Positions 1,189 through 48,137 are shown, counted from the stretch's first letter. The stretch: DNA of 64,000 nucleotides from Candidatus Omnitrophota bacterium (GCA_016931055.1 JAFGFL010000091.1:42108-106107), one strand, 5' to 3'. Notes: a model not told the origin generated them from the letters alone. Program-made: numbers and translations.

Positions 1189-1192
1189 TTTG

Positions 1193-2026: not shown

Positions 2027-2027
2027 G

Positions 2028-3889: not shown

Positions 3890-3903
3890 AACGGAGGAAA
3901 GCG

Positions 3904-30524: not shown

Positions 30525-31552
30525 TCAATTCAAGCCAAACATTATTCTTTGATCGTATTGTTGACCAGATTTCTGAAATCGGGCTGGATTTTCATGTTAA
30601 TAACATCTTTCAGCATGCCGAGAAGAATTCGGCAGATGTTAAACGGTCCATCAAACAGCTGCCCGCGCTTAAAGGAAATAAAGCGCGCACAGGCATCGTT
30701 ATCAGCGCCGGGCCGAGTCTCCGCAAAAAGAATTCGATCCAAAGAATATTTGACTCCGATTATCAAGGGTCGATTATCGCTATTGATGCTGCTTACATTG
30801 CCTGTCTGAAGGCGGGCCTTATTCCGGATTATGTGGTGACGATGGATCCCAATCCAACCAGAATGGTCCGGTGGTTCGGTGATCATGATTTTGAAAAGAA
30901 TACGGGAAATGATGATTACTATACACGGCAAGACCTGGATGTGGATTTCCGCCGTAATAGTCAGGAACAGAACAGGCGGCATATTGAGCTTGTTAATCAG
31001 CATGGACCTCTCAGTAAGGCTATTATTGCGACATCGGCCCCCAGGAATGTTGTCACCAGGATAAAGGAGGCTCGCCTGGACATGTATTGGTGGAATCCGC
31101 TTATGGATGATCCTACTAGGCAGGGAAGCCTGACGCGCAGACTCTATGAGATGAACGGACTTCCGTGCATCAACACCGGGGGAAATGTGGGGACGACGGC
31201 CTGGATTTTTGCCAATTCGGTCCTGAAACTCCCGCGCGTCGCGATTGTCGGGATGGACCTTGGTTACTATATGGACACGCCGATTGAAATGACGCAGACG
31301 TATTATGAATTGATCCACCATTTGGGGGGACGGGAAAATATCAAGGGATGTTTCAAGGAATATGAATTTCCCCTTGACCAGCAGAAGTATTATACCGATC
31401 CGACTTATTTTTGGTACCGCAAGAATTTGCTGGAGATGCTGGAAAGAGCGCCAGGAAAGACAGTCAATTGCACTGAAGGAGGAACGTTATTCGGTCCGCA
31501 TATCGAATGCGTCCGTCTCGACCGGTTTTTGGAAGAATCTGCTCATGGCTAA
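30521..31552 (+). CDS. Maf-family / DUF115 (MptE-like fold) protein; putative nonulosonic-acid glycosyltransferase
   Basis: GIVISAGPSLRKK...IIAIDAAYIACLKAGLIPDYVVTMDPNP matches the conserved core of motility-associated-factor glycosyltransferases; 343 aa, shorter than Campylobacter Maf proteins. Confidence 0.5.
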   Translation: MINSSQTLFFDRIVDQISEIGLDFHVNNIFQHAEKNSADVKRSIKQLPALKGNKARTGIVISAGPSLRKKNSIQRIFDSDYQGSIIAIDAAYIACLKAGLIPDYVVTMDPNPTRMVRWFGDHDFEKNTGNDDYYTRQDLDVDFRRNSQEQNRRHIELVNQHGPLSKAIIATSAPRNVVTRIKEARLDMYWWNPLMDDPTRQGSLTRRLYEMNGLPCINTGGNVGTTAWIFANSVLKLPRVAIVGMDLGYYMDTPIEMTQTYYELIHHLGGRENIKGCFKEYEFPLDQQKYYTDPTYFWYRKNLLEMLERAPGKTVNCTEGGTLFGPHIECVRLDRFLEESAHG

Positions 31553-34959: not shown

Positions 34960-35682
34960 ATGTTCAAGTCAAAGAAGATTTTGTCGTTTATCGGGGCACG
35001 GGCGGGATCAAAAGGCCTCAAGAACAAGAATATTATTGATTTAGCGGGAAAGCCGCTTGTCGGCTGGACCATCGACGCTTCTCTCGGGTCAAAATATATT
35101 GACCGGACTATAGTTTCAACGGATGGGGAGGAAATTGCCCGTTTCGCAAAAGCATCAGGCGCCGATGTTCCTTTTTTACGTCCTAAAGAATTGGCGGATG
35201 ATGAATCATTGCTTGATGGGGCGATTCAACATGGTGTTCAATGGCTGAGAGAACATGAACAAACGGTTTACGATTATCTTCTTCTTTTGCAGCCGACATC
35301 TCCTTTGAGGACGTCAGCCCATATCGATGCGGCGATAGAATATTTTTTTGAGCATGTGCGGTCTGACCGGGACATGTTGATATCGGTGACTCCTGCGCCG
35401 ATGAAAACGGGCTGGCTTATGCATCAAAATGCTGCTGGTTATGTCCAGTTCAGCCTGGATTTCACCCGGGGTAAACATCGCAGGCAGGAAATGCCTCAGA
35501 TGTATTTTCCGAATGGTTTCATCTATTTTGGCCCTGTGGGGATTATGGAGCGCATTGGCTCGGTTACGGAGATGATGATTCCGTATGTTACAAGTAAGGA
35601 TATATCGGTGGATGTTGATTCACTGGATGACTTGAAGGAAGCAGAGGCATTGATCCAAGGAAGAAGGAGAGCGAATCAGTGA
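34960..35682 (+). CDS. CMP-nonulosonate synthetase (acylneuraminate cytidylyltransferase NeuA/LegF/PseF family)
   Basis: ILSFIGARAGSKGLKNKN (IPARxGSKGIPxKN-type motif), LQPTSPLR. Confidence 0.8.
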   Translation: MFKSKKILSFIGARAGSKGLKNKNIIDLAGKPLVGWTIDASLGSKYIDRTIVSTDGEEIARFAKASGADVPFLRPKELADDESLLDGAIQHGVQWLREHEQTVYDYLLLLQPTSPLRTSAHIDAAIEYFFEHVRSDRDMLISVTPAPMKTGWLMHQNAAGYVQFSLDFTRGKHRRQEMPQMYFPNGFIYFGPVGIMERIGSVTEMMIPYVTSKDISVDVDSLDDLKEAEALIQGRRRANQ

Positions 35683-37568
35683 AAAGAGAAAACATTCTGC
35701 TTGTAGAGACTGGTTCGATGCCGTTCTGGAGAACTTTTGGATATGATGATGTTTATGCTCTTTACGGCAACTCCACCAAAGGCAAGAAACTTCCCTGCGA
35801 TTTCATGAAAATGGAAGAAGGGCTTTTATCTAATTATAAAGCCGGTCAAATCATTGATTGGGTTTATGGACTTTTCGTTGATACACCTGAGAACCAATTC
35901 TTGGCTGAAATCATGGCGGATGAACAGGGCGGCCGGATTCTTAAAAAAGCGCTGTTGTGGGAATTGGGAAGAATTTGTCATTCGATGATTTTAGCGGAGA
36001 AATTCAGGAAAGATTATGGGTTTAATCAAGTCATCGATTTCATCCCGCGGCCTTTTTTCTATGCGCTTTTTTGTTTAATTCAAAAAAAAGAAGGCGTGCT
36101 TCCGGAGGGCATCCGTATTCCTCAATGGTATCTTCGGAAAATGAAGAGACGTGAAACCATGAAGAGTTGGATCTACGCCGTGGGTTTAGCGCTTTATCCG
36201 GTGTTAATCGGTGTCACGATGTCAGGGAAGCCGCGGACGAGAAAAGAATATTCATACGCGGTCCATATGTGGGACAGCTGGATCAGTACTTACGGGCCCA
36301 AAAGCGAATATCGCATGCAGTTTCTTGAAGGTTCCCGAAGTGTCAGCAAGGACAACGCCCTTTATTTCATTGATCAAAAGGCAGGCAAAGAGAATATTCG
36401 ACAAATTCAAACGAGTGGTTATGAATGCTGTTATTTCAAAAACATGGTCAGATCATTCAACGGTAGGACGTACTGGAAAGATATTTATCCTCAGGTAAGA
36501 AAACATATAAAGGCTCTGTTATCCTCTGTGGGACAGAATGGTTTATTTGCTGAGACATGTTTCAAGGCGGTCGTTTCATATATCCATTGGAAAATATTTT
36601 TCCATTTTTACGGAATAAAAGTGTTTCTTTATGTCCAGGACCCCTGCGATATTGCGGGGACCTTGCTCCAAAAGCGGCATAAGGCGCGAAACGTCTTTAT
36701 TTATTACTCGACGCAATACGATTGTGTTGAACGGGAAAACATGAACACTTTTACGGAAACGTACTACGGGCATATGATGGCGACGGCCATGATTTCAAGC
36801 CGCATGTCCAACGATTATTTTAGGAGAAACAACGAGCTGATTGGAGATTACAGGGAATGCGGGCTGATCTGGTCTGACATTGTGTTTGCGATGAAGAATG
36901 ATCTTCAATGGCAAGCCAGGGTAAAAAAAGAGATCGGATTGCCTTCCGGGAGAATTGTCCTAGGGGTTTTCACTCCGGGGATTGGACGCGCCGGTTGTCT
37001 GACGGAAGACGAAGGGTTCAGAATGATTGATGACATTTATCGTCTGATCGAATCGAATGAACAGTATTGCGTGGTTCTCAGGTATCGGCAGGTTGGCCTG
37101 TGGACCGAAAATGGCGCTTTGCGAAAGAAATTGGAACAACTGATTGACCATGAACGGGTTTTTGATGCGCATCGATTGGCGCCGAAATATCAGGCATATC
37201 AACTGATGGGTTGTTGTGATCTGGTGATAGGGGGGTTTGCCTCCAGCGTGCCGATGGAATCCGTCGCTGGTGGGATAAGGACTGTATGTTATGTGCCGGA
37301 ACGGTTAAAAAAGAATGTTTTTGTAATCAATTCGTTCCCGAAGTTTTGCCCGAAGGATTTCAAACAATTGAATGAGTATGTGCACTTTTGGCTTGATGAA
37401 TGTGATGACAGGGCATTTGCTGATTTCCAGGATGCTTATGTGAAGCCTCATGTTGACAGTTATTGTGATGGGCAAGCGACGAAAAGGCTGGGCGCGTTGC
37501 TTGCGGAAATTGAAAAAGAGGCCAGGGGAAGTGTTTTGCCGATGGAGATGGAAACTGTTTCCGTGTGA
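35679..37568 (+). CDS. large uncharacterised protein; candidate novel glycosyltransferase
   Basis: 629 aa with no recognised motif; C-terminal GRIVLGVFTPG...VLRYRQ...CDLVIGGFASSVPMESVAGGIRTV is arranged like a GT-B C-domain; 4-bp overlap with the CMP-synthetase gene. Confidence 0.3.
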   Translation: MKRENILLVETGSMPFWRTFGYDDVYALYGNSTKGKKLPCDFMKMEEGLLSNYKAGQIIDWVYGLFVDTPENQFLAEIMADEQGGRILKKALLWELGRICHSMILAEKFRKDYGFNQVIDFIPRPFFYALFCLIQKKEGVLPEGIRIPQWYLRKMKRRETMKSWIYAVGLALYPVLIGVTMSGKPRTRKEYSYAVHMWDSWISTYGPKSEYRMQFLEGSRSVSKDNALYFIDQKAGKENIRQIQTSGYECCYFKNMVRSFNGRTYWKDIYPQVRKHIKALLSSVGQNGLFAETCFKAVVSYIHWKIFFHFYGIKVFLYVQDPCDIAGTLLQKRHKARNVFIYYSTQYDCVERENMNTFTETYYGHMMATAMISSRMSNDYFRRNNELIGDYRECGLIWSDIVFAMKNDLQWQARVKKEIGLPSGRIVLGVFTPGIGRAGCLTEDEGFRMIDDIYRLIESNEQYCVVLRYRQVGLWTENGALRKKLEQLIDHERVFDAHRLAPKYQAYQLMGCCDLVIGGFASSVPMESVAGGIRTVCYVPERLKKNVFVINSFPKFCPKDFKQLNEYVHFWLDECDDRAFADFQDAYVKPHVDSYCDGQATKRLGALLAEIEKEARGSVLPMEMETVSV

Positions 37569-37618
37569 AATGAGCGATGCTAACAAGAAAAACAGCCCTT
37601 AGGGGAGAATTGAATCAT

Positions 37619-38278
37619 ATGCCGAAAGACAAAATTGTTATCATCGGAGCGGGAGGATTTGGGAGGGAAGTCTGCCGTTGGGTCATGGATATGTACCAGG
37701 GACGCAAAGATGTTGTTGAGGGGTTTTATGACGACAATCCAAGAACCCTTGAAAAATTTCCTGATTTGGAGCTTTCGGTCATAGGAAATACGGCTTTTTC
37801 TGAGGCGCGTCAGGATGTTCTATTTGTGTGTTCGATCGGAAACGTTGAGAACCGGGAAAGACTGTTCATGAAAATCAAGAAATTGGGCGGCAGATTTCTC
37901 ACGGTCATTCATCCTTCGGCGATCATGTCTCCCAACTGTCGAATAGGTGAAGGCGCTATTATCGGGCCTGGGGTTGTGATCAGTGAAAGAGCGGATATCG
38001 GGAAAAACGCGGTCTTGAATATTGGAGTGATTTGCGGGCATGATGTCATTGTGGGAGCGCATTCAAACATTTGTCCCGGAGTCAATATTAACGGTGAGGT
38101 TGAGATCAAGCCGAGGGTGTTTATCGGCTCTTCGGCTGTTATTACACCCAGGGCGGTTATCCCTGAGGATTGTGATGTTTCGGCGGGGAGCGTGGTGTAT
38201 AAAAAGTCTGATTTAAAATCAGGAATGTGTTTGCACGGGAACCCGGCAAAACTATTTCCCAAAATGAGGAAGCACTAA
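37619..38278 (+). CDS. NeuD/PglD-family sugar N-/O-acyltransferase (left-handed beta-helix)
   Basis: KIVIIGAGGFGREV N-terminal Rossmann-like motif typical of NeuD/PglD; C-terminal hexapeptide repeats (IGEGAIIGPGVVISERADIGKNAVLNIGVICGHDVIVG); ATG at 37619 after AGGGGAG. Confidence 0.7.
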   Translation: MPKDKIVIIGAGGFGREVCRWVMDMYQGRKDVVEGFYDDNPRTLEKFPDLELSVIGNTAFSEARQDVLFVCSIGNVENRERLFMKIKKLGGRFLTVIHPSAIMSPNCRIGEGAIIGPGVVISERADIGKNAVLNIGVICGHDVIVGAHSNICPGVNINGEVEIKPRVFIGSSAVITPRAVIPEDCDVSAGSVVYKKSDLKSGMCLHGNPAKLFPKMRKH

Positions 38279-38284
38279 CGACTG

Positions 38285-38551
38285 ATGAAGGAAAGGGAAG
38301 CTGAAAGCATGAATGATCAAAATGAGAAAATAAGGAAAATATTCGCCGATGTTCTCGGCATTCCGGTTGAAAAAATTGATGATGACCTTCAATATAATTC
38401 TATCCCTGAATGGGATTCCATCGCGCATATGGCGCTGATCACGGCGCTTGACAAATCCTTCGATATAATGATTGAAACGGAGGATATCATTGACATGAGC
38501 AGTTTCGGAAAAGCCAAAGAAATCCTTCAGAAATATGAGGTTGTCCTATGA
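38285..38551 (+). CDS. acyl carrier protein
   Basis: 77-88 aa; IPEWDSIAHMALI carries the DS(I/L) phosphopantetheine-attachment serine; an alternative ATG at 38309 has a better RBS (AAGGAAAGGGAAG). Confidence 0.7.
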   Translation: MKEREAESMNDQNEKIRKIFADVLGIPVEKIDDDLQYNSIPEWDSIAHMALITALDKSFDIMIETEDIIDMSSFGKAKEILQKYEVVL

Positions 38552-39294
38552 AGACGATGGAAGGAAAGATTGTTTGGGTGACCGGCGCTTCAAGAGGTAT
38601 CGGGCGGGCCACTGCCTTAATGTTTGCCAAGGAAGGCGCCACTCTGATTCTCAATGCGCGGGAAGAAGGCCATTTGAAGGAAATTGACGCTCAAGTCAAA
38701 GAAGTTTCAGGGAATGCGCCGGTCCTTCTGGGTTACGATGTTTCTGATCCCGTGAAAGTCAAAGACAGCTTTCACCTGATCCATAAGAAGTTCAAGAAAC
38801 TGGATGTGATGGTGAACAATGCCGGAATCCTGGAGGATTCGTTGTTAGGGATGCTTAGCCCTGAATTGGTGACAAAGATATTCTCGACCAACGTGTTCTC
38901 GGTTATTTATCATATGCAATATGCTTCACGATTGATGGCGAAGGATGGAACGGGAAGCATTATCAATGTGAGTTCCATCATCGGCCGTTTGGGCAATGAG
39001 GGACAGGTGGCTTACGGCGCGAGCAAAGCCGCTGTCATCGGGGCGACATTGTCGGCGGCGAAGGAACTCGCGCCGGCGGGCATCAGGGTGAACGCGATTG
39101 CTCCCGGATTTATTGATACGGACATGGTGAAACAGCTGTCGCGTGAGAAATATGATCAACGTTTAGCGAGCATTAAAATGAAAAGGCTGGGGAGTCCGGA
39201 GGAAGTCGGAAAAGTGATCTTCTTTCTGGCTTCTGACGCGGCTTCCTATGTCACGGGTCAAGTGATCGGGATTGATGGGGGCATGCTGGTATGA
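38548..39294 (+). CDS. 3-oxoacyl-ACP-reductase-like SDR (FabG-like)
   Basis: VWVTGASRGIGRATA, NNAG, YGASKAAVIG (YxxxK), PGFIDTDM. Confidence 0.8.
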   Translation: MKTMEGKIVWVTGASRGIGRATALMFAKEGATLILNAREEGHLKEIDAQVKEVSGNAPVLLGYDVSDPVKVKDSFHLIHKKFKKLDVMVNNAGILEDSLLGMLSPELVTKIFSTNVFSVIYHMQYASRLMAKDGTGSIINVSSIIGRLGNEGQVAYGASKAAVIGATLSAAKELAPAGIRVNAIAPGFIDTDMVKQLSREKYDQRLASIKMKRLGSPEEVGKVIFFLASDAASYVTGQVIGIDGGMLV

Positions 39295-40697
39295 ATTTCT
39301 GGGATTTATCACATTCGGGAAAGAGCATTGTTGTCAATAACAGTGAAACCCGGAAGAACTATAGTTATTTGGAATTCCAAGATCGGGTGGATGCTTTCAA
39401 GGCGGAAATGGCGGCACAAAACACCAAAGGGAAAACGTTGGGATTCATCTTTTGCAGGAATTCGCCTGCCGCTTTGGCTGGATATCTGGCGGCTTTGCAG
39501 GGAAAACAAGCCGTTTGCCTGTTAAGCGTTCAATTAGCGGATTTTCTGAGGGATGAATTGATCCGGATTTACCAGCCTGATTGGATATGGGCTCCGTCGG
39601 AAATGGGGGCTTTACCAAATAATTATGATGGAAAGAGGGAATGGGAGGGGTATAGATTGTCTTGTATCTCGCGGGAATCTAAGGGGACGGAAATTCATCC
39701 GGATCTAGCTGTTCTTCTTTCGACATCCGGAACGACCGGAACTCCCAAAATGGTGCGTTTATCCTACCGGAATCTTCAGGCAAACGCCGAATCCATCGCG
39801 GAATATTTGAGGCTGACGTCCAATGAATGCCCGGTGACGACCTTGCCCATGCATTATTCCTACGGACTGTCTGTTGTGAACAGTCATTTACAGGTGGGGG
39901 CGACCTTATTGCTGAATAACCATGACATGATGACAAGGTCGTTCTGGAATTTATTCAAGGAAGAGAACCCTACCTCTTTCGCCGGAGTGCCTTATACCTT
40001 TCAAATGCTTCATCGATTGAAGTTTGAACAAATGCAGCTTCCGTCGTTAAGGACAATAACCCAAGCAGGAGGGCATCTGGATGTTCAATATCAGGAATAT
40101 TTTCAGAAAGCGTGCGGCCGGATGAATGTCAGGTTCTTTGTGATGTACGGCCAGACAGAGGCGACCGCGCGGATCAGTTATATTCCTGTCGAGAAACTTT
40201 CTGATTGTTTGGGTTCTATCGGGATTTCGATACCCGACGGGCGGATGGAAGCAGACCCGGAAACGCAGGAATTAATATACCATGGACCAAACGTCATGAT
40301 GGGATACGCCGAAAGCCGCAAAGACCTGAACAAAGGGGATGAATTAAACGGTCGGCTAAGAACGGGGGACATTGTCAGGCAGGATGAAAGAGGTCATTTC
40401 TATATTCAAGGGCGGTTGAAACGGTTTATCAAACCATTTGGATTGCGCGTGAACTTGGATGACCTGGAGTCGATGATCAAGAAACGATTCCAGAAAGCTT
40501 GTTATTGCACAGGGGATGATTCTCATTTGCTCATTGCCGTTCCGCATGAGAATTTAACCCAGGAAGTCAAAAACCTGATGGTGGATACGTACGGAATGAA
40601 ATTGTCCACATTGAGAGTTTCCACTCTGACGGATATTCCCCGTCTGGAAACGGGTAAAGTCAATTATGCGGCACTGAAGGACGCTCTGCTTAAATGA
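39291..40697 (+). CDS. AMP-dependent synthetase/ligase (acyl-ACP/CoA ligase, adenylate-forming)
   Basis: LLSTSGTTGTPKMV (AMP-binding P-loop), YGQTEA, GD.V..DE.G.F...GR C-terminal motif. Confidence 0.8.
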   Translation: MNFWDLSHSGKSIVVNNSETRKNYSYLEFQDRVDAFKAEMAAQNTKGKTLGFIFCRNSPAALAGYLAALQGKQAVCLLSVQLADFLRDELIRIYQPDWIWAPSEMGALPNNYDGKREWEGYRLSCISRESKGTEIHPDLAVLLSTSGTTGTPKMVRLSYRNLQANAESIAEYLRLTSNECPVTTLPMHYSYGLSVVNSHLQVGATLLLNNHDMMTRSFWNLFKEENPTSFAGVPYTFQMLHRLKFEQMQLPSLRTITQAGGHLDVQYQEYFQKACGRMNVRFFVMYGQTEATARISYIPVEKLSDCLGSIGISIPDGRMEADPETQELIYHGPNVMMGYAESRKDLNKGDELNGRLRTGDIVRQDERGHFYIQGRLKRFIKPFGLRVNLDDLESMIKKRFQKACYCTGDDSHLLIAVPHENLTQEVKNLMVDTYGMKLSTLRVSTLTDIPRLETGKVNYAALKDALLK

Positions 40698-41779
40698 ATC
40701 TGGAACGCTTTTTTCAAGAGGAACCATTCGCTTGGGGTGCTGATGAGAAAAACGGCATCTTATCGGACGCGCTGTGGAAATTAACGGAAAAACACAGGAA
40801 GGCCTGTGAGATGTACCGGCGGATCCTGGAAGCGCTGCCGAACGGCACATTCAATTCTAAACGGATCGATCAGGTGCCGACGCTTCCGATCGGGCTTTTT
40901 AAACGGTATGACTTAAAAAGTGTTTCTCCTAAAGCTGTTGTCCGGGTCCTGACATCGAGCGGAACGACTTCGCAGACAGTGTCCCGTATTTTTCTGGACA
41001 AAGAAACATCTGTTCTTCAGACCAAAGCGTTGACGTGTATTATGCGGTCATTTATCGGACCCAAGCGGTTGCCGATGATCTTGGTGGACAGTCAAAATGT
41101 CCTGGAGAGGAAGGATTCCATGAACGCCCGCGGGGCCGGCCTGGTTGGTTTGAGCCTGTTTGGCCGGGATCACTTTTACATGCTGGACGAATCCATGCGT
41201 GTCCGTTGGGAAGAACTGGGAGCTTTCCTTAAGGAACATGCTGGTGAGAAAATCCTTATTTTTGGATTTACATCGATGATTTGGCAATATTTTCTGGAAG
41301 AAGCAAGGGCGGGAAAACGTGATATCTCTGTGCGAAATGGCCTATTGGTCCATGGCGGCGGTTGGAAGAAATTACAGTCACTGGGGATATCAAACGATGA
41401 ATTTAAGAAAGCGATCAGAAACCAGTTCCAGATTGAGCAGATTCACAATTTTTACGGGATGGCGGAACAGGTGGGTTCCATATTCATGGAATGTGAACGC
41501 GGCTATCTCCACGTTCCGAATTGTTCCGATATAATCATTCGGGATGGGCGTTCTCTGGAAGCGCTGAGGAACCGGAAAAAAGGGATCATTCAGGTGTTGA
41601 GCGTTTTGCCCCAAAGCTATCCGGGGCACAGTTTGCTGACGGAGGATGAAGGGATGATTGAGGGAGAAGATGATTGTCGTTGCGGACGCAAGGGAAAGTA
41701 TTTCCAGGTTCTTGGCCGTTTACCTCAAGTCGAATTACGCGGATGCAGTGATGTTTACGCTTATGGAGAAAGTCACTAA
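40694..41779 (+). CDS. LuxE-like acyl-protein synthetase family protein
   Basis: About 360 aa; VLTSSGTTSQTVSRIF resembles the LuxE SSGTTG acyl-adenylate motif; sits next to the ligase and a LuxC-like gene. Confidence 0.5.
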   Translation: MNLERFFQEEPFAWGADEKNGILSDALWKLTEKHRKACEMYRRILEALPNGTFNSKRIDQVPTLPIGLFKRYDLKSVSPKAVVRVLTSSGTTSQTVSRIFLDKETSVLQTKALTCIMRSFIGPKRLPMILVDSQNVLERKDSMNARGAGLVGLSLFGRDHFYMLDESMRVRWEELGAFLKEHAGEKILIFGFTSMIWQYFLEEARAGKRDISVRNGLLVHGGGWKKLQSLGISNDEFKKAIRNQFQIEQIHNFYGMAEQVGSIFMECERGYLHVPNCSDIIIRDGRSLEALRNRKKGIIQVLSVLPQSYPGHSLLTEDEGMIEGEDDCRCGRKGKYFQVLGRLPQVELRGCSDVYAYGESH

Positions 41780-43005
41780 TGGAAGTATTATCGCCTGCAA
41801 ATGTCAAAGCGATGGATTACCAGGAGATTTTGGAAAGCATTCTAAAACGGGAGCCGTTTAAACCGTTTGATCCCGTCCTGATGGCGTTTGCCAAAGATGT
41901 TTCGGATGCCGTATTGAGCGACCGTCATTTTCGCGGTTACCCTGACATGATGGCGGCGGCTCACTGGATGCGGGCAAGTCATATAAAGGAGGTTCGCGAG
42001 AGATATGAATCCAGGCGGCAGGGACGGATTTGGCTGCCGAGAGGGACGGTCGTGCATTTTGCTCCGGCGAATGTGGATACTGTTTTTATTTACTCATGGA
42101 TTATTTCTTTTCTTCTGGGCAACAAAAACATCATCCGGCTTTCTCAGGGGAGAGGTCAGCAAGTGAACGCGTTTCTTCAGGCGGTCAATGGATTGCTCGA
42201 GAATAAGCGATACCAGCCGGTGAGCGACCGGAATATGTTTATCTGTTATGGGCATGAGGAGACGGTAACGGGAAGCCTTTGCGCTCAGTGCGATGTGCGT
42301 GTTATTTGGGGGGGGGATGAAACGGTTCGTTTGATCCGGCAGGTACCGCTGCCGCCTTACGCGACGGAAATCGTTTTTGCGGACAAGTTTTCTTTGGCGG
42401 CCATAAAAAGTAAGGCTGTCACAATATCGACGGAGAATGATTTGAACGATCTCGCTGGAAAATTCTATAATGATGCCTTCTGGTTCAATCAGAACGCCTG
42501 TTCATCACCGAGAATGGTTGTATGGATCGGTTCCAAGAGTGATAATGAGAGAGCGAAGAAGCTGTTTTGGGACGCGCTAAAGAAAGTAATTGAAAGAAAT
42601 GGCCTCAAGGAGGATGTGGCGGTCGGGTTGAACAGGATGTTGACGGGATACAGTTTTGCCGCTGAAGGATTAGCGGATCGATTGTCCTCTCAGGGGACGG
42701 AGAGGCCGTACCGTTTGCATATTAATGATTTAAGCGACCGGGTTAGGACGCAGCATGCTGGCGGCGGTGTATTCCTTGAAATGGAACTGTCCTCATTGTC
42801 CCTGCTAACCAGGCATGTGACTCGCAAGGATCAAACGTTATCTGTTTATGGATTTGACAAAGATGAATTGTCCGAATTCTCATCAGGTTTATTAAACGGA
42901 GGCGTGAACCGGGTCGTTCAGGTTGGGCAAGCGCTTGAGTTTGATTTGATTTGGGACGGATTTGATTTGTTTACTTATCTTTCGCGTGAAATCACGGTGA
43001 AATAA
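41779..43005 (+). CDS. LuxC-like acyl-CoA/acyl-protein reductase family protein
   Basis: About 408 aa, overall aldehyde-dehydrogenase-like; HFAPANVDTVFIYSWIISFLLGNKNIIRLSQ, VIWGGDETV; genomic context with LuxE-like/ACP/ligase as in the V. cholerae O1 rfbKLMNO genes. Confidence 0.45.
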   Translation: MEVLSPANVKAMDYQEILESILKREPFKPFDPVLMAFAKDVSDAVLSDRHFRGYPDMMAAAHWMRASHIKEVRERYESRRQGRIWLPRGTVVHFAPANVDTVFIYSWIISFLLGNKNIIRLSQGRGQQVNAFLQAVNGLLENKRYQPVSDRNMFICYGHEETVTGSLCAQCDVRVIWGGDETVRLIRQVPLPPYATEIVFADKFSLAAIKSKAVTISTENDLNDLAGKFYNDAFWFNQNACSSPRMVVWIGSKSDNERAKKLFWDALKKVIERNGLKEDVAVGLNRMLTGYSFAAEGLADRLSSQGTERPYRLHINDLSDRVRTQHAGGGVFLEMELSSLSLLTRHVTRKDQTLSVYGFDKDELSEFSSGLLNGGVNRVVQVGQALEFDLIWDGFDLFTYLSREITVK

Positions 43006-43017
43006 TGCAAGGGACCT

Positions 43018-44037
43018 ATGCCTAATAAGAAAAATACTCATGTTATGATCATCGCCGAGGCGGGTGTTAACCACAATGGAAACTTGGAGACGGCGTTGCG
43101 GCTGGTTGATGAGGCGGCATGTGCGGGTGCCGATGCCGTTAAATTCCAGACTTTTATTGCCGAAGCGGGTGTCAGCAAGTTCGCGCCGAAAGCCGAATAT
43201 CAGAAGAGAACCATGGGGAATGAGGAATCGCAACTGGAAATGGTCAAGAAGCTTGAACTGGATGAAAACGCGCACAGGAAATTGATGCAACGCTGCAAAC
43301 AGAAAGATATCCTTTTTCTTTCGACACCTTTTGACAGGGGAAGTATTGAATTGCTTGATCAGCTTGGACTGGAGATGATCAAAATTCCTTCCGGTGAGAT
43401 CACGAATCTTCCATATCTGCGAAAGGTCGGGGCCTTGAAGAAAAAGCTCATTCTTTCGACCGGCATGTCAACCCTCAAGGAAATCCGGGTGGCGCTCCGG
43501 ATACTGGAATCCTCAGGGACGCCAAGGAGCCGGATAACAGTTCTTCATTGCAATACCGAGTATCCAACTCCCTACGAGGACGTGAATCTTTTGGCCATGT
43601 TGACGATCAGAGACAAGTTGGGTGTTAAGGTCGGTTATTCCGATCATACTCTAGGCGTTGAAGTTCCTATTGCGGCGGCCGCTTTGGGCGCGTCGGTTAT
43701 TGAAAAACATTTTACTCTTGACCGGACGATGCCCGGACCCGATCATATAGCTTCCATTGAACCAGATGAACTGAGGCAAATGGTTTTGGCCGTGAGAAAT
43801 ATTGAGAAAGTCCTGGGGGATGGTACTAAAAAGGCTTCGCCTTCTGAACAAAAGAATATTCCTATCGCTCGTAAAAGTATTGTGGCTGATAAAGACATTG
43901 CCAAAGGGGAAATCTATTCCGAGAGTAATATTACAATCAAAAGGCCAGGAACGGGGATCACTCCTATGCAATGGGACCATGTGTTGGGCATTCCATCCAA
44001 AAGAAACTTTTGTAAAGATGAATTGATTGAATTATAG
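43018..44037 (+). CDS. nonulosonic acid synthase, NeuB/PseI/LegI family (copy 2)
   Basis: VMIIAEAGVNHNG, AVKFQTF, LSTPFD, C-terminal SAF domain (SIVADKDIAKGEIYSESNITIKRPGTG). Confidence 0.8.
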   Translation: MPNKKNTHVMIIAEAGVNHNGNLETALRLVDEAACAGADAVKFQTFIAEAGVSKFAPKAEYQKRTMGNEESQLEMVKKLELDENAHRKLMQRCKQKDILFLSTPFDRGSIELLDQLGLEMIKIPSGEITNLPYLRKVGALKKKLILSTGMSTLKEIRVALRILESSGTPRSRITVLHCNTEYPTPYEDVNLLAMLTIRDKLGVKVGYSDHTLGVEVPIAAAALGASVIEKHFTLDRTMPGPDHIASIEPDELRQMVLAVRNIEKVLGDGTKKASPSEQKNIPIARKSIVADKDIAKGEIYSESNITIKRPGTGITPMQWDHVLGIPSKRNFCKDELIEL

Positions 44038-44103: not shown

Positions 44104-45741
44104 ATGAGTAAACCAAATATGCTATTCATTTCACCACCGGATATACCTATCGAAGAAATTAGGAATACGAATACACCGACGGCACAGTGGGCAACGAACA
44201 TTTCCATGAAGATGGGGATCTTATCGCTTGCGGCCTATACTTTAAAGCATGTGGATGCACAAATCCGGATTATTGATCTTGGTCTCGAGATTTCAAATAA
44301 TGAGGATAGTTTTAAAACGATGATATGGGAGGAGTTTTTACGTCTGACCATGTCGAAAGTGTTTGATTCAGAACTTCCTGAGATTGTCGGGATATCGGCT
44401 CTTTATAACTCCAATGCAGGATATATGGAACTTATTGCTTCAACCGCAAAAGTTTTATGGCCGGGAGTCTTGGTTATTGCGGGGGGTATTTTACCGACCA
44501 ATTATTATCGTTATGTTCTTGATGAGGCCCCGAGTATCGATGCCATCGTAATCAAAGAAGGAGAGAAGCCTCTTGTTGGGCTTCTTACAGCCGGTGATAA
44601 GAAAGAATACCTTGCTGGGGCAAAGGGATGGATGACAAGAGAAAGGCTTCATGAAGAGCCAACCATGGACTTAATCAATGATCTCGATGAAATCCCGTTC
44701 TTTAGATATGACCTGATTGATTTCGATGCTTATCAGAAATTGAATCGTTACCATGGTGAGCGCTCGTCTGATTCAATTGCTGTATCGGTGATGACAACAC
44801 GGGGATGTCCCTATGGATGTTGTTTCTGCGCATCACATACGGTCCATGGAAAGAAAATAAGACGACATAGTTCTGAACGTGTTTTGAATGACATCCATAA
44901 ACTAAAGGAATTATACAAAGTGAATATCATTTTGATTGAAGACGATCTTTTTTTTATTCAGAAAGAGTATGCGCTTGAGGTGTTAAAGGGCATTTCAAAA
45001 ATGAATTTGACCATTGAATTTCCAAACGGGATTTCCATCCAACATATGGATGAAGAAATGGTGGATGCTTTAAAAACAGCCGGCCTTAAAATGGCAACAC
45101 TAGCTGTGGAATCAGGGAGTGAGCGTGTGCTCAATGAAATCATTCATAAACCATATAAGAAACTATCAAGAGTGAAATATGTTGTTTCTCTTTTGCGAGA
45201 ACGGGGAATATATGTTCGGGCTGGTTTTATAATTGGTTTTCCGGGAGAAACGATGGAAGAGATTCTTGAAACTAAGCGGTTCATGAAAGAAACAGGCTTT
45301 AATTGGGTGCAGATATTTATTGCTACACCGTTAGTCGGATCTGAACTTTATGATATCTGTAAGAAGAACGAGCTGCTGATATCTGACAGTCTCGAGAAAT
45401 TCCATTTTGGGCAATCTAACATAAGATTATCACATTCAACTTCCGAAGAATTTGTTAACCTTCGATATTTGATGAATTTGGAAGTCAATTTTGTTGATAA
45501 TTATGATTTAAGGAATGGTAGCCCGCAAGTTGCACTGATTGGATTTCTCGATGTAATCAATCGGGTCCCCAATCACGCGTTTGCTTACTATTTTGCCTCT
45601 CAATGTTATGAAAAGATGGGAAAGGAAGATCTATGCCGTGAGTATCAAGCAAAGTATAGAGAGATTGTTCTTGCTTCAAGCGAATGGATGGGATACACAA
45701 AACACTTTAATCTTCCAATTGGGGAAATGGCTGAATTATGA
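44104..45741 (+). CDS. cobalamin(B12)-binding-domain radical SAM enzyme (class B) #3
   Basis: B12-fold N-terminus (MLFISPPD...GILSLAAYTLKH); CPYGCCFC (CxxxCxxC); 545 aa. Confidence 0.75.
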   Translation: MSKPNMLFISPPDIPIEEIRNTNTPTAQWATNISMKMGILSLAAYTLKHVDAQIRIIDLGLEISNNEDSFKTMIWEEFLRLTMSKVFDSELPEIVGISALYNSNAGYMELIASTAKVLWPGVLVIAGGILPTNYYRYVLDEAPSIDAIVIKEGEKPLVGLLTAGDKKEYLAGAKGWMTRERLHEEPTMDLINDLDEIPFFRYDLIDFDAYQKLNRYHGERSSDSIAVSVMTTRGCPYGCCFCASHTVHGKKIRRHSSERVLNDIHKLKELYKVNIILIEDDLFFIQKEYALEVLKGISKMNLTIEFPNGISIQHMDEEMVDALKTAGLKMATLAVESGSERVLNEIIHKPYKKLSRVKYVVSLLRERGIYVRAGFIIGFPGETMEEILETKRFMKETGFNWVQIFIATPLVGSELYDICKKNELLISDSLEKFHFGQSNIRLSHSTSEEFVNLRYLMNLEVNFVDNYDLRNGSPQVALIGFLDVINRVPNHAFAYYFASQCYEKMGKEDLCREYQAKYREIVLASSEWMGYTKHFNLPIGEMAEL

Positions 45742-46901
45742 AAAAAATATGTATTATTACTGGATCACGGGCGGAATACGGGATTCTCAGGCCTTTGATC
45801 GAAGAAATTAAGAATGACGGCAGTCTTGAACTGCAATTGCTGGTTACAGGGATGCACCTATCGACGGAATTCAATCTCACTTTTCAGGAGATAGAGAAGG
45901 ACGGATTTCCGATCAGCGAAAAAATTGAGACGCTGCTGAGTTCTGATACACCTGTCGGCATCTCAAAATCGATGGGATTGACTATCATCAGCTTCAGCGA
46001 AGCCTACGAGCGACTGAAGCCTGACCTCATTGTTGTCCTTGGGGACCGATTTGAGATTTTCAGCGCTCTTGTTCCGGCTCTGATTTGCGGGATCCCGGTG
46101 GCGCACATTGCCGGCGGCGAAATAACGCAAGGGGCTTTTGATGACGCCTTGCGTCATTCCATCACTAAAATGAGCCAGATCCATTTTACGGCGACCGAGG
46201 AATACAGAAAAAGGGTCATTCAATTGGGCGAACATCCTTCTACGGTCTTTAATGTCGGAGCCCCGGGGATCGATGCCATCCAAAAGACGCGATTCTTGAC
46301 CAGAGAAGGATTGAAGAAGGAACTGGGGATTGGCTTTAACAAGCGAAATCTGCTTATTGTATTTCATCCGGCGACCTTGGAGAAGAAAACGGCGTCCAAA
46401 GACCAATTCAGGGAGATACTTTCTGTTTGTGACGAACTCAAAGACACGAATATGTTTTTTGTTAAATCAAACGCGGATACCCATGGCCGGATCATCAACG
46501 CGATGATTGATGAATATGTCGCGGTCAATTCCGAGACAACATGGGCATTTACATCGTTAGGGCACGAAAAATACTTGTCTCTTCTGCGGCAGGTGGACGG
46601 CATGATAGGAAATTCTTCAAGCGGTATTGTTGAAGCGCCCAGTTTGAAGGTGGGCACGATCAATATCGGAGACCGGCAGAAGGGAAGAGTCCGGGCCCAA
46701 AGCGTCATCGACTGTGAGGCGACAAAAGGGGCGATAAGGAAGGGGATTAAGACGTTGTATTCAGCGGCCTATCAAAGAAAACTAAGAAATGTTCTCAATC
46801 CCTATGGGAAAGGGAACGCGGCAAAATCGATCAAGGGAATCATTAAATCATATCAGTTGAACAATATTGTTAAAAAGAAGTTTTATGACATCAAGGGATA
46901 A
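45738..46901 (+). CDS. UDP-N-acetylglucosamine 2-epimerase (hydrolysing), NeuC/LegG-like (copy 2)
   Basis: KICIITGSRAEYG, DLIVVLGDRFE, HIAGGEITQGAFDDALRHSITKMSQIHF; colinear with copy 1. Confidence 0.8.
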   Translation: MKKICIITGSRAEYGILRPLIEEIKNDGSLELQLLVTGMHLSTEFNLTFQEIEKDGFPISEKIETLLSSDTPVGISKSMGLTIISFSEAYERLKPDLIVVLGDRFEIFSALVPALICGIPVAHIAGGEITQGAFDDALRHSITKMSQIHFTATEEYRKRVIQLGEHPSTVFNVGAPGIDAIQKTRFLTREGLKKELGIGFNKRNLLIVFHPATLEKKTASKDQFREILSVCDELKDTNMFFVKSNADTHGRIINAMIDEYVAVNSETTWAFTSLGHEKYLSLLRQVDGMIGNSSSGIVEAPSLKVGTINIGDRQKGRVRAQSVIDCEATKGAIRKGIKTLYSAAYQRKLRNVLNPYGKGNAAKSIKGIIKSYQLNNIVKKKFYDIKG

Positions 46902-46904
46902 AAT

Positions 46905-48137
46905 ATGACTGTTAAAGGGAAACGAAATTTGGGAAAAAGAAATCTTCGGCCCGCCGTGTTGGGAGGAAAGCCCGCTTTTAATGAATTGATCAGTATCACG
47001 AAACCGACTATAACGTCCATCGGATGGCTGCGAAACAGGTATGGCGCTGTCTTGAAAAGCGGTGTTATAACCAACGCCGGAAATGTCAGGGAATTCGAGA
47101 AACGGATTGAAGAATACTGTGGCGTCAAGAATGCGGTGGCGGTCAGCAGCTGTACAAGCGGACTCATGCTGGTGTTAAAGACGATGAACCTAAAAGGAGA
47201 GGTTATTCTTCCCAGTTTCACGTTTCATTCGACGGCCCATGCGGTTGCTTGGGCGGGATTAAAACCTGTTTTTGTTGATTGTGATAATCGCACGTTTAAT
47301 ATTGATTCTGGGGAAGTTGAACGGGTGATCAATTCTCAAACCAGCGCGGTCATTGGTGTTCATTTGTTTGGAAATCCGTGCAATGTAAAGGAACTTGAAC
47401 GCATCGCAAAAAGGAACAAGCTGGCCTTGTTGTTTGATTCGGCCCACGGTTTTGGGGCTCAGTATAAAGGCCATCCTTTAGGATCGTCAGGGGATGCCGA
47501 AGTCTTCAGCTTAAGCCCGACAAAACTCCTTACAGCAGGAGAAGGAGGAATTGTCACGACGAATGACGATACACTGGCCAGAAATATCCGTGTGGGGAGA
47601 AATTATGGAGATGCCGGGACCTATAGTTGCGAATTTTCTGGTTTAAACGCGCGGATGAGCGAATTGCATGCGCTTTTAGGTATTTCAAGTCTTGAGAACC
47701 TTGAGAGGAATGTCCAATGGCGGAACAAGCTTGTTCGACTATACAAATCGTTATTATCATCGATCCCGGGTATTCGTTTTCAGGAAATCAGAGAAGGGGA
47801 CAGGAGTTCTTTCAAGGACTTTTCAATTGTGATCAATGAAAAAGAGTTTGGATTGAACAGGGACGTTTGCGGGGCATGTCTTGAGAAAGAAAATATCGGA
47901 GTAAAAAAATATTTTTACCCTGCCGTTCATACCCAGAAGGCTTTTGCCCGGTATTATAACAAGAGTTACCAACGGACTTTAAGAACAACAGTGGCCGTTT
48001 CGGAGAATATTCTGAGTTTGCCGCTTTATTCACATATGAAGGAAACTCATGTACGTAAAATTTGCGCTTGTATCGAAGGGATTAATCGGAACAAGCTTCA
48101 AATACAATCCTTATGGGAAAAGAATAAGTGGCTATAA
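46905..48137 (+). CDS. DegT/DnrJ/EryC1-family PLP-dependent aminotransferase (LegC/PseC-like)
   Basis: VSSCTSGLMLVL, FSLSPTKLLTAGEGG (PLP lysine), about 410 aa. Confidence 0.8.
   Translation: MTVKGKRNLGKRNLRPAVLGGKPAFNELISITKPTITSIGWLRNRYGAVLKSGVITNAGNVREFEKRIEEYCGVKNAVAVSSCTSGLMLVLKTMNLKGEVILPSFTFHSTAHAVAWAGLKPVFVDCDNRTFNIDSGEVERVINSQTSAVIGVHLFGNPCNVKELERIAKRNKLALLFDSAHGFGAQYKGHPLGSSGDAEVFSLSPTKLLTAGEGGIVTTNDDTLARNIRVGRNYGDAGTYSCEFSGLNARMSELHALLGISSLENLERNVQWRNKLVRLYKSLLSSIPGIRFQEIREGDRSSFKDFSIVINEKEFGLNRDVCGACLEKENIGVKKYFYPAVHTQKAFARYYNKSYQRTLRTTVAVSENILSLPLYSHMKETHVRKICACIEGINRNKLQIQSLWEKNKWL

What the first reader, a model, noticed from the sequence alone, without database searches (positions are those of the whole stretch)
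38285..43005. ACP / FabG-like / AMP-ligase / LuxE-like / LuxC-like cassette: a tetronate-type acyl side-chain module next to the nonulosonate genes
Five consecutive genes encode an acyl carrier protein (DSI serine), a FabG-like reductase, an adenylate-forming ligase, a LuxE-like acyl-protein synthetase and a LuxC-like reductase. This gene set mirrors the Vibrio cholerae O1 rfbK-L-M-N-O genes that build the 3-deoxy-L-glycero-tetronyl N-acyl group of perosamine. Here it lies immediately downstream of a NeuD/PglD-type acyltransferase (37619-38278) and between the two NeuB copies. The implied product is a nonulosonic acid N-acylated with an unusual short hydroxy-acyl group instead of acetyl.
Basis: partly seen in the sequence, partly recalled or inferred. 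Interest (0 to 1): 0.7.

Follow-up and report, generated by a model that had tools for sequence, protein, structure and literature searches.

The report
Acyl side-chain cassette beside sialic-acid-like sugar genes
Five tightly packed genes in an uncultured Omnitrophica bacterium probably build a short, hydroxylated acyl group that replaces acetyl on a sialic-acid-like surface sugar; the same gene set is already reported in flagellar glycosylation islands and occurs in hundreds of species, but nobody has tested what it makes.

Summary
Five + strand ORFs at 38285-43005 encode an ACP, a FabG-type SDR, an adenylate-forming ligase, a LuxE-family acyl-protein synthetase and a LuxC-family reductase. 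All score above their Pfam thresholds and keep their catalytic residues. Their start and stop codons overlap, and a NeuD/PglD-type acyltransferase gene ends 6 nt upstream. The set lies inside a legionaminic-acid-type gene set.

The cassette is not new as a gene set. The same five genes are described in Aeromonas group II and Enterobacteriaceae flagellar glycosylation islands, where they were only guessed to make a "lipo-sugar". My scan found it in at least 577 species-level genomes across many phyla. It is usually flanked by N-acyltransferase, PseI/NeuB, DegT or CMP-transferase genes.

The parallel with Vibrio cholerae O1 RfbK-O holds at domain level only, and with differences: an Fe-ADH instead of the SDR, and LuxC and LuxE fused. 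No sequence alignment was possible.

Best reading (confidence about 0.6): LuxE and LuxC reduce a carboxylate to an aldehyde, the SDR reduces that to an alcohol, the ligase loads the hydroxy-acid on the ACP, and the NeuD-type enzyme N-acylates the 4-amino sugar precursor. A C4 dihydroxybutyryl (tetronyl-type) product is plausible, because it fits the unexplained 376.14 Da Aeromonas sugar, but it is unproven. It is a new member of a known but uncharacterised kind.

The parts
37577..38278 (+). NeuD/PglD/VioB-family hexapeptide N-acyltransferase. The likely real start is 37619. Proposed to transfer the cassette's acyl group to the 4-amino sugar intermediate (the LegH position).
   Evidence: TIGR03570 175 bits (cut-off 160.8), PglD_N plus Hexapep. 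Best solved relatives are VioB 7txp (E 1.2e-21), PerB 4ea7 and PglD 3bss. Ends 6 nt before the ACP gene. An acyltransferase directly flanks the cassette in 27 of 80 related loci.
38285..38551 (+). Acyl carrier protein, 88 aa, phosphopantetheine serine S45 in the DSI motif
   Evidence: PF00550 27.9 bits. D44-S45 conserved in 56/56 homologues next to LuxE genes.
38548..39294 (+). FabG-type NADPH short-chain dehydrogenase/reductase. Proposed to reduce the aldehyde (or an oxo group) to an alcohol.
   Evidence: adh_short_C2 218.7 bits. TIGR01830 245.7 bits, below its cut-off of 297.75. Best PDB matches are FabG enzymes, E about 1e-51. TGxxxGIG motif and S143/Y156/K160 conserved in 59/59.
39291..40697 (+). 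Adenylate-forming ligase, 468 aa. Proposed to load the finished acid on the ACP.
   Evidence: PF00501 130.6 bits. Weak, below-cut-off NCBIfam matches to acyl-ACP synthetase domains of Aas, to DltA and to a 2-oxoglutaryl-ACP ligase. Nearest solved enzymes include oxalate-, malonate-, o-succinylbenzoate- and 4-hydroxybutyrate-CoA ligases. Core motif residues and catalytic K456 conserved in 72/72.
40694..41779 (+). LuxE-family acyl-protein synthetase. Activates a carboxylate with ATP and carries it as a thioester on C351.
   Evidence: PF04443 162.7 bits. Aligns to Photobacterium LuxE 7xc6_E over residues 54-352, with RGC(351)S opposite KGC(364)S. Cys364, Lys238 and Arg355 are the functional residues in PMC9157457. 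K225, R342 and C351 conserved in 80/80.
41779..43005 (+). LuxC-family acyl-thioester reductase (aldehyde-forming), catalytic C241
   Evidence: PF05893 97 bits. Aligns to LuxC 7xc6_A, with QNAC(241) opposite QQAC. C241 conserved in 74/74.
43018..44037 (+). NeuB/LegI-type nonulosonate synthase (context: the pathway the cassette serves)
   Evidence: TIGR03569 498 bits (cut-off 399.65).
45738..48137 (+). NeuC-type hydrolysing 2-epimerase (45738-46901) and DegT-family aminotransferase (46905-48137). Both are legionaminic-type pathway steps (context).
   Evidence: TIGR03568 475 bits. DegT PF01041 337 bits; the LegC-family model scores 190 bits, below its cut-off.
34960..35682 (+). CMP-nonulosonate cytidylyltransferase-like gene (context)
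   Evidence: PF02348 78.7 bits. PseF model 127 bits, below its cut-off.

Best explanation
The five genes, together with the upstream NeuD-type acyltransferase, form one operon-like unit. It makes a short, hydroxylated acyl donor on a dedicated carrier protein and uses it in place of acetyl-CoA to N-acylate the 4-amino group of the legionaminic-acid precursor. That nitrogen becomes N7 of the finished nonulosonic acid.

Proposed steps:
1. LuxE-like enzyme adenylates a free carboxyl group of a small (probably C4 dicarboxylic) acid and holds it as a thioester on Cys351.
2. LuxC-like enzyme takes it on Cys241 and reduces it with NADPH to an aldehyde.
3. The FabG-type SDR reduces the aldehyde to an alcohol.
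4. The AMP-ligase adenylates the remaining carboxyl and loads the hydroxy-acid on Ser45 of the ACP.
5. The NeuD-type enzyme transfers it to the amino sugar.

Shown: the gene set, the intact catalytic residues, the tight linkage, and the conserved neighbourhood. Inferred: the order of steps, the substrate, acyl-ACP use by the NeuD-type enzyme, and the product. The most likely product class is a C4 dihydroxybutyryl (tetronyl-type) group; I put that specific product at about 0.3.
For: All domains are above family thresholds. The functional residues of LuxE (K225, R342, C351) and LuxC (C241) align to those of the solved LuxC-LuxE complex. They are invariant in 74-80 homologues, as are the ACP serine, the SDR triad and the ligase lysine.

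The genes have overlapping start and stop codons, with 6 nt from the acyltransferase to the ACP gene.

The cassette is conserved in at least 577 species-level genomes. Of 80 loci, 33 have the identical order. In other variants the SDR directly follows LuxC, or whole LuxE-LuxC(-SDR) units are duplicated (L021, L032, L042, L061). That fits an 'activate, reduce to aldehyde, reduce to alcohol' trio.

The genes directly flanking the cassette are N-acyltransferases in 27 of 80 loci (10 hexapeptide, 17 GNAT), then DegT, CMP-transferase and GT2. NulO-type genes lie within 10 kb in 47 of 80 loci. The synthases include PseI-type (L005, L022, L030, L020), NeuB/LegI-type (L075) and an intermediate class. 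In Brevibacillus the unit hexapeptide transferase-ACP-SDR-ligase-LuxE-LuxC stands alone.

V. cholerae O1 makes N-(2,4-dihydroxybutanoyl)-perosamine with the same domain set (PMC12208996, PMC9915646, PMC9201469).

Aeromonas strains that carry this cassette directly downstream of pseH have a 376.14 Da pseudaminic-acid derivative (PMC7874193). Pse with one acetyl and one C4H6O3 acyl computes to 376.148 Da. 3-Hydroxybutyryl gives 360.15, hexanoyl 372.19 and octanoyl 400.22.

No ketosynthase, dehydratase or enoyl reductase is present in the cassette, so it does not elongate a chain.
Against: No biochemical or genetic test of the cassette was found in the held literature.

Solved NeuD/PglD/PerB/VioB enzymes use acetyl-CoA, not acyl-ACP (names, and my own knowledge).

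The mass match in Aeromonas cannot separate isomers such as O-methylglyceroyl, 2,3-, 2,4- and 3,4-dihydroxybutyryl. It comes from a pseudaminic-acid system, not this organism.

The SDR is closest to true 3-oxoacyl-ACP reductases, so it may reduce a keto group rather than an aldehyde.

The V. cholerae parallel is at domain level only, with a different alcohol dehydrogenase family.

The window also encodes other amino-sugar pathways (DegT genes at 12772 and 13899) that could be the acceptor.
Confidence: 0.6

Rival explanations
1. Lipo-sugar reading, as suggested in the two papers that noticed the cassette. The genes channel a long-chain fatty acid to a fatty aldehyde or fatty acyl group that is attached to the glycan.
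For: LuxC and LuxE of luminous bacteria reduce myristic acid (PMC9157457). Both genome papers propose a lipid component.
Against: The proteins are far below the NCBIfam equivalog cut-offs for true LuxE (61.7 against 550 bits) and LuxC (38.6 against 750 bits). The glycan masses in cassette-bearing Aeromonas (376 and 422 Da linking sugars) leave room for only about 102-148 Da of acyl group; an octanoyl derivative would already be 400.2 Da and a myristoyl one 484.3 Da. There is no LuxD-type transferase and there are no chain-building enzymes.
Confidence: 0.07
2. 3-Hydroxyacyl reading. The ligase loads a 3-oxo acid such as acetoacetate on the ACP and the FabG-type enzyme reduces it, giving the common N-(3-hydroxybutanoyl) group. 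LuxE and LuxC then do something separate, for example making an aldehyde for another modification.
For: The SDR is most similar to genuine 3-oxoacyl-ACP reductases. 3-Hydroxybutanoyl is a well-known N-acyl group of pseudaminic and legionaminic acids (my own knowledge; 'Hb' is listed among the substituents in PMC5378307).
Against: It leaves the two most conserved genes, LuxE and LuxC, without a role, although they are coupled to the rest by overlapping codons and co-occur in nearly every locus. The computed mass of 360.15 Da does not fit the 376.14 Da Aeromonas sugar.
Confidence: 0.13
3. Different-acceptor reading. The acyl-ACP is real but is transferred to another amino sugar of this 64 kb glycan island (a 4-amino-4,6-dideoxyhexose such as viosamine, perosamine or bacillosamine) or to a hydroxyl group, not to the nonulosonic acid.
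For: The closest solved relatives of the acyltransferase are VioB and PerB. The V. cholerae module acylates perosamine. The window has two further DegT aminotransferases and several 4,6-dehydratase-like genes. In Brevibacillus the module has no NulO gene within 10 kb, and 33 of 80 loci show no NulO-type neighbour. Aeromonas AH-3 also carries an unexplained terminal 102 Da moiety.
Against: Here the module sits between the CMP-transferase and the NeuB, NeuC and DegT genes of one pathway. The NeuD-type gene is the only N-acyltransferase I found in the window, so a legionaminic pathway would otherwise lack its LegH step. NeuB or PseI lies within 10 kb in 24 of 80 loci, many of which are cut short by contig ends.
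Confidence: 0.15

Closest known systems
[quoted passage not shown]
   Same: The same five protein families, listed in the same order in the Aeromonas paper. Both sit directly downstream of the sugar N-acyltransferase gene and inside a nonulosonic-acid gene set. Enterobacterales loci with the cassette also came up in my own scan (L050, L080).
   Different: In Aeromonas the pathway is pseudaminic acid, the adjacent transferase is pseH (assigned to the GNAT family from my own knowledge, not checked here) and a GT2 (Fgi-1) follows luxC. Here the pathway is NeuB/NeuC/DegT (legionaminic-type), the transferase is a NeuD-type hexapeptide enzyme and NeuB follows LuxC. No flagellin gene is in this window. 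No Aeromonas sequences were available, so orthology is inferred from the description, not aligned.
Vibrio cholerae O1 rfbK-L-M-N-O (wbeK-O, VC0248-VC0252), which makes the 3-deoxy-L-glycero-tetronyl (2,4-dihydroxybutanoyl) N-acyl group of perosamine
   Same: A carrier protein, an adenylate-forming ligase, LuxC and LuxE domains, an alcohol-forming reductase and an acetyltransferase-like enzyme clustered within a sugar pathway. The acceptor is also a 4-amino-4,6-dideoxy sugar.
   Different: In V. cholerae LuxC and LuxE are fused in one 2478-nt gene, the alcohol dehydrogenase is iron-dependent rather than an SDR, the gene order differs, and the acceptor is GDP-perosamine. Sequence similarity was not measured.
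LuxC-LuxE fatty acid reductase of luminous bacteria (PDB 7xc6)
   Same: Same Pfam families. The acylated C-terminal cysteine, the Lys/Arg pair of LuxE and the catalytic cysteine of LuxC are all conserved.
   Different: Only distant similarity (E 3.7e-8 and 3.5e-5), far below the NCBIfam equivalog cut-offs. The LuxC-like protein is 408 aa against the 477-residue solved LuxC chain. There are no LuxD, LuxA or LuxB genes. The sugar-pathway context implies a small acid, not myristate.

Membership tests
Pfam PF04443 (LuxE acyl-protein synthetase family) | Score above the gathering cut-off over most of the model | tested here: met
   162.7 bits against 24.9; model positions 22-385 of 391.
Pfam PF04443 (LuxE acyl-protein synthetase family) | C-terminal acylated cysteine plus the Lys/Arg adenylation pair | tested here: met
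   C351, K225 and R342 align with Cys364, Lys238 and Arg355 of 7xc6_E. Invariant in 80/80 homologues.
True LuxE / LuxC of bioluminescence (NCBIfam equivalogs NF052244, NF052251) | Score above the curated equivalog cut-off | tested here: not met
   LuxE 61.7 against 550 bits; LuxC 38.6 against 750 bits. They are family members, not orthologues of the light-organ enzymes.
Pfam PF05893 (LuxC acyl-CoA/acyl-protein reductase family) | Score above the gathering cut-off, and the catalytic cysteine | tested here: met
   97 bits against 21. QNAC241 aligns with QQAC of 7xc6_A. C241 conserved in 74/74.
Housekeeping FabG (TIGR01830 equivalog) | Score above the equivalog cut-off | tested here: not met
   245.7 against 297.75 bits. 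It is a FabG-like SDR with an intact Ser-Tyr-Lys triad, but not the fatty-acid-synthesis enzyme.
NeuD/PglB/VioB sugar N-acyltransferases (TIGR03570) | Score above the cut-off; PglD_N domain plus hexapeptide repeats | tested here: met
   175 against 160.8 bits; PglD_N 42.5 bits and Hexapep 49.8 bits.
Aeromonas / Enterobacteriaceae flagellar-glycosylation-island acyl cassette | Five genes: ACP, 3-oxoacyl-ACP reductase, AMP-dependent synthetase, LuxE, LuxC, contiguous and co-oriented | tested here: met
   compared with the description in PMC7874193.
Aeromonas / Enterobacteriaceae flagellar-glycosylation-island acyl cassette | Embedded among nonulosonic-acid genes, next to the sugar N-acyltransferase | tested here: met
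   NeuD-type gene 6 nt upstream, NeuB 12 nt downstream. The pathway type differs (Leg-type, not Pse).
Aeromonas / Enterobacteriaceae flagellar-glycosylation-island acyl cassette | Located in a flagellar region (flagellin and maf genes nearby); GT2 Fgi-1 downstream of luxC | tested here: inconclusive
   One MptE/Maf-like gene lies at 30521-31552, but there is no flagellin in the 64 kb window and no GT2 follows LuxC. Only 1 of 80 related loci (L066) shows a flagellin within 10 kb.
V. cholerae O1 tetronate module (RfbK-O) | Carrier protein, AMP-ligase, LuxC and LuxE domains, and an acetyltransferase in one cluster | tested here: met
   Domain-level comparison with the annotations quoted in PMC12208996, PMC9915646 and PMC9201469.
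V. cholerae O1 tetronate module (RfbK-O) | Iron-containing alcohol dehydrogenase (RfbM); LuxC and LuxE fused (RfbN) | tested here: not met
   Here there is an SDR and two separate genes.
V. cholerae O1 tetronate module (RfbK-O) | Sequence-level orthology to RfbK/L/N/O, and a 2,4-dihydroxybutanoyl product | not testable with these tools
The product needs chemistry.

The most novel reading that the evidence does not exclude
The cassette is a general, portable 'carboxylate-to-alcohol on a carrier protein' module. It turns a C4 dicarboxylic acid (malate or oxaloacetate) into dihydroxybutyryl-ACP. The adjacent NeuD-type or GNAT transferases are acyl-ACP-dependent versions of LegH/PseH. That would identify the long-unexplained 376 Da (and perhaps 422 Da) pseudaminic-acid derivatives and the 102 Da cap of Aeromonas flagellins, and assign a function to this gene set in more than 500 species. 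In this Omnitrophica island the chain might additionally be C-methylated by one of three neighbouring B12-radical-SAM enzymes, giving an N-acyl group not yet described on any nonulosonic acid.
Probability: 0.25. Interest if true: 0.6.

Novelty: new member of a known kind. Interest (0 to 1): 0.45.

Why it matters
Nonulosonic acids on flagella, capsules and lipopolysaccharide shape motility, phage attachment and immune recognition, and their N-acyl groups carry much of that specificity. How any N-acyl group other than acetyl, formyl or acetimidoyl is made is largely unknown. This cassette is one of the most widespread candidate routes: at least 577 species-level genomes across roughly fifteen phyla. 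Yet it is annotated only as 'fatty acid synthesis-like'. A concrete, testable pathway is now available, with a mass prediction (+102.03 Da on the ACP, 376.148 Da for the Aeromonas sugar). It could be checked quickly in Aeromonas or Bacillales strains that are already in culture. For this particular window the finding is an ordinary new instance in an uncultured lineage.

Tried and rejected
1. Shewanella oneidensis sfmABCDE. I recalled it as the same cassette. The paper shows a PseI-like protein, a 3-oxoacyl-ACP reductase, a methyltransferase and an ATP-grasp enzyme, with no LuxE or LuxC. Rejected.
2. Morona et al. 1995 (the V. cholerae tetronate pathway paper) is not held. The pathway details rest on later papers' summaries and on my memory.
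3. Direct alignment to V. cholerae RfbK-O or to Aeromonas Orf1-3/LuxE/LuxC was not possible. The single genome-contig scan returned the 80 closest loci, with neither genus among them.
4. Papers on Tannerella forsythia (N-glyceroyl Pse), on Clostridium flagellar Pse, and the SugarBase preprint say nothing about ACP or LuxE genes.
5. Full-text searches for a functional study of the cassette found only the two genome-survey papers. A search for dihydroxybutanoyl- or 4-hydroxybutanoyl-substituted nonulosonic acids listed no paper containing any of those three acyl terms.
A flagellar target is therefore not shown.
7. The 629-aa ORF upstream of the acyltransferase has no Pfam, NCBIfam or PDB match.
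8. Substrate prediction from the ligase's nearest solved relatives (oxalate, malonate, succinylbenzoate and 4-hydroxybutyrate ligases) is suggestive of small acids. The matches cover only the conserved C-terminal part of the fold (query residues about 112-468, in most cases about 136-400), so I did not use it as evidence.


Full report
**1. What is there**

The window carries five + strand ORFs at exactly the reported coordinates: 38285-38551, 38548-39294, 39291-40697, 40694-41779 and 41779-43005. Against Pfam they are:
- an acyl carrier protein (PP-binding, 27.9 bits);
- a short-chain dehydrogenase (adh_short_C2, 218.7 bits);
- an adenylate-forming enzyme (AMP-binding, 130.6 bits);
- a LuxE-family acyl-protein synthetase (PF04443, 162.7 bits; cut-off 24.9);
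- a LuxC-family reductase (PF05893, 97 bits; cut-off 21).

Successive genes overlap by 4, 4, 4 and 1 nt. The upstream NeuD/PglD-type acyltransferase ends 6 nt before the ACP gene, and a NeuB gene starts 12 nt after LuxC.

The expected catalytic residues are all present:
- the SDR has TGxxxGIG and Ser143/Tyr156/Lys160;
- the ligase has the STSGTTG..K, YGQTE and C-terminal lysine motifs;
- the LuxE-like protein aligns with Photobacterium LuxE (7xc6_E) over residues 54-352, placing RGC351S opposite KGC364S. Cys364 is the acylated cysteine there, and Lys238/Arg355 drive adenylation (PMC9157457). These correspond to K225 and R342 here;
- the LuxC-like protein aligns with LuxC (7xc6_A), with QNAC241 opposite QQAC.

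**2. Context**

The protein set is 100% identical to one from a 'Candidatus Omnitrophica bacterium' metagenome-assembled genome (P0001). An independent assembly confirms the gene calls. The whole 64 kb is one co-oriented glycan-biosynthesis region.

Around the cassette lie:
- NeuB copy 1 (27097);
- a GalE/LegB-like SDR and a NeuC-type 2-epimerase;
- a Maf/MptE-like gene (30521);
- two B12-radical-SAM genes;
- a CMP-transferase (34960);
- a 629-aa orphan;
- the NeuD-type acyltransferase, then the cassette;
- NeuB copy 2 (43018; TIGR03569 498 bits, above cut-off);
- a third B12-radical-SAM gene;
- a second NeuC-type epimerase, a DegT aminotransferase, a CBS-plus-dehydratase protein and a nucleotidyltransferase.

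This is the gene content of a legionaminic-acid-type pathway. The NeuD-type enzyme occupies the LegH (4-amine N-acyltransferase) position; that pathway assignment rests on established knowledge of the Campylobacter Leg pathway. WbuX plus a WbuZ/HisH fusion at 24407-27092 points to an acetamidino group as well. I found no other N-acyltransferase in the window and no flagellin.

**3. The cassette elsewhere**

The LuxE-like protein has more than 7,000 database relatives at E<=1e-10. The 80 loci kept come from Bacillota, Bacteroidota, several classes of Pseudomonadota, Campylobacterota, Nitrospirota, Spirochaetota, Elusimicrobiota, Bdellovibrionota, Ignavibacteriota, Actinomycetota, Chloroflexota, Margulisiibacteriota and others.

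I searched them with the window's proteins:
- 33 of 80 have the order ACP-SDR-ligase-LuxE-LuxC;
- 9 have SDR-ACP-ligase-LuxE-LuxC;
- at least 6 have ACP-ligase-LuxE-LuxC-SDR;
- most of the rest are contig-end fragments;
- four loci (L021, L032, L042, L061) carry a second LuxE-LuxC pair, in three of them (L021, L042, L061) directly followed by an SDR gene.

Catalytic residues are invariant: ACP Ser 56/56, SDR triad 59/59, ligase Lys 72/72, LuxE Lys/Arg/Cys 80/80, LuxC Cys 74/74.

Genes directly flanking the block are hexapeptide acyltransferases (10 loci), GNAT acetyltransferases (8 upstream, 9 downstream), DegT (7), CMP-transferase (5), GT2 (4), and a split transketolase just upstream of the ligase (8). 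DegT, NeuB/PseI, NeuD or CMP-transferase homologues lie within 10 kb in 47 of 80 loci. The synthases are PseI-type in L005, L020, L022 and L030, NeuB/LegI-type in L075, and an intermediate class in five others. In Brevibacillus ginsengisoli the unit 'hexapeptide transferase-ACP-SDR-ligase-LuxE-LuxC' stands without NulO genes.

The module is therefore a portable unit that travels with an N-acyltransferase and plugs into different amino-sugar pathways.

**4. What is already known**

Two genome surveys describe this very gene set.
- In Enterobacteriaceae islands, Acp, FabG, CaiC, LuxE and LuxC occur in about 70-80 strains (PMC4875605).

Both papers only suggest that the glycan 'may incorporate a liposugar'. 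Full-text searches found no functional study.

For V. cholerae O1, held papers give:
- RfbL (VC0249) as the ligase that activates 2,4-dihydroxybutanoate and attaches it to the carrier protein RfbK (PMC12208996);
- VC0250 as an iron-containing alcohol dehydrogenase;
- VC0252 as an acetyltransferase (PMC9915646, PMC9201469).

Mutations in wbeN were among the O1-antigen-biosynthesis mutations that gave resistance to the O1-antigen-dependent ICP phages. It differs in the alcohol-forming reductase family and in the LuxC-LuxE fusion. I could not align sequences.

**5. Mechanism**

The cassette has two ATP-dependent carboxylate activators (the ligase and LuxE), one thioester-to-aldehyde reductase, one carbonyl reductase and one carrier protein. 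It has no chain-building enzymes.

The simplest chemistry that uses every part is this: reduce one carboxyl of a small di-acid to an alcohol (LuxE, LuxC, SDR), tether the other carboxyl to the ACP (ligase), then transfer the acyl group to an amine (NeuD-type enzyme). It is also the logic attributed to the V. cholerae genes. The recurring LuxE-LuxC-SDR adjacency and its duplication in some loci fit this trio.

Product size can be bounded from published Aeromonas data. Cassette-bearing strains carry linking sugars of 376.14 Da (AH-3) and 422 Da with minor 376 Da (ATCC 7966). Computed residue masses are:

| Residue | Mass (Da) |
|---|---|
| Pse5Ac7Ac | 316.127 |
| Pse with acetyl + C4H6O3 acyl | 376.148 |
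| Pse with acetyl + hydroxybutyryl | 360.153 |
| Pse with acetyl + hexanoyl | 372.190 |
| Pse with acetyl + octanoyl | 400.221 |

The match to a dihydroxybutyryl-type group is my inference. It does not separate isomers. A C4H6O3 + C3H4O3 pair would give 422.154 Da, and the unexplained terminal '102 Da' unit of AH-3 has the same nominal mass as C4H6O3. Both remarks are speculative.

These masses argue against the long-chain 'lipo-sugar' idea. The far sub-threshold scores against true LuxE and LuxC equivalogs argue the same way.

**6. Open points**

- Solved NeuD/PglD/PerB/VioB enzymes are acetyl-CoA users, so acyl-ACP use is an inference from linkage.
- The SDR is closest to real 3-oxoacyl-ACP reductases and could act on a keto group.
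- The acceptor could be another amino sugar of the island.
- The target of glycosylation (flagellin, another protein, or a polysaccharide) is unknown.
- The product in this organism cannot be read from sequence.

**7. Verdict**

The gene set itself is already in the literature and is very common. This window adds an instance in Omnitrophota, attached to a legionaminic-type rather than a pseudaminic pathway.

The main value lies in a testable pathway and mass prediction for a widespread, functionally unassigned module. Novelty: new member of a known kind. Interest: 0.45.

Noticed in passing
window 31362-33143, 33130-34950, 44104-45741 (+): Three B12-binding radical SAM enzymes sit inside the nonulosonic-acid gene set. 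They are only 20-24% identical to each other. The third is closest to P-/C-methyltransferase-type families, though far below their cut-offs. None has a homologue in the 80 related loci. They might C-methylate the sugar or its acyl chain.
   Followed up: partly
window 16708-18473 (+); L028, L032, L034, L056, L057, L074, L076, L080 just upstream of the AMP-ligase gene: A split transketolase (N-terminal and pyrimidine/C-terminal subunits) lies 20 kb upstream in the window. A homologous C-terminal subunit gene sits directly upstream of the ligase, between the SDR and the ligase where both were detected, in 8 related loci, including a Tannerella MAG. This may be a variant that supplies a two-carbon (glycolyl-type) unit to the ACP.
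   Followed up: partly
L021, L032, L042, L061: Some loci carry two LuxE-LuxC pairs, in L021, L042 and L061 directly followed by an SDR gene, around one ACP and one ligase. This suggests two successive or parallel carboxylate reductions.
   Followed up: no
window 24407-27092 (+): A WbuZ(HisF-like)/HisH fusion plus a WbuX N-acetyl-sugar amidotransferase (361 bits, above cut-off). This is the machinery that converts an acetamido group to an acetamidino group, so the sugar may carry both an acetimidoyl and the unusual acyl group.
   Followed up: no
window 424-7243 (+): A further set of genes: HpcH/HpaI aldolase, methyltransferase, CMP-type cytidylyltransferase, GFO/IDH/MocA oxidoreductase, SIS isomerase, D-2-hydroxyacid dehydrogenase, SDR and a 3-dehydroquinate-synthase-like enzyme. 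It looks like a third, unusual CMP-activated acid-sugar pathway.
   Followed up: no
window 35679-37568 (+): A 629-aa ORF between the CMP-transferase and the acyltransferase has no Pfam, NCBIfam or PDB match, one hydrophobic segment, and no homologue in the 80 related loci. It is a candidate nonulosonate transferase or other novel step.
   Followed up: partly
window 1-64000: All 58 or so large ORFs are on the + strand, with positive GC skew (0.12-0.23) throughout and G+C of 39-49%. This is an unusually long single-orientation glycan region. The no-Pfam ORFs at 55054 and 60499 have about 8 hydrophobic segments each, so they may be a polymerase or flippase.
   Followed up: no
window 28109-29122 / 28977-30296: These two ORFs overlap by 146 nt. 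The NeuC model starts at residue 48 of the second ORF, so its true start is probably downstream of 28977.
   Followed up: no
L079 6447-7481: The NeuB-like match beside the cassette in Pseudovibrio denitrificans contains two in-frame stop codons. It may be a pseudogene or a sequencing error.
   Followed up: no
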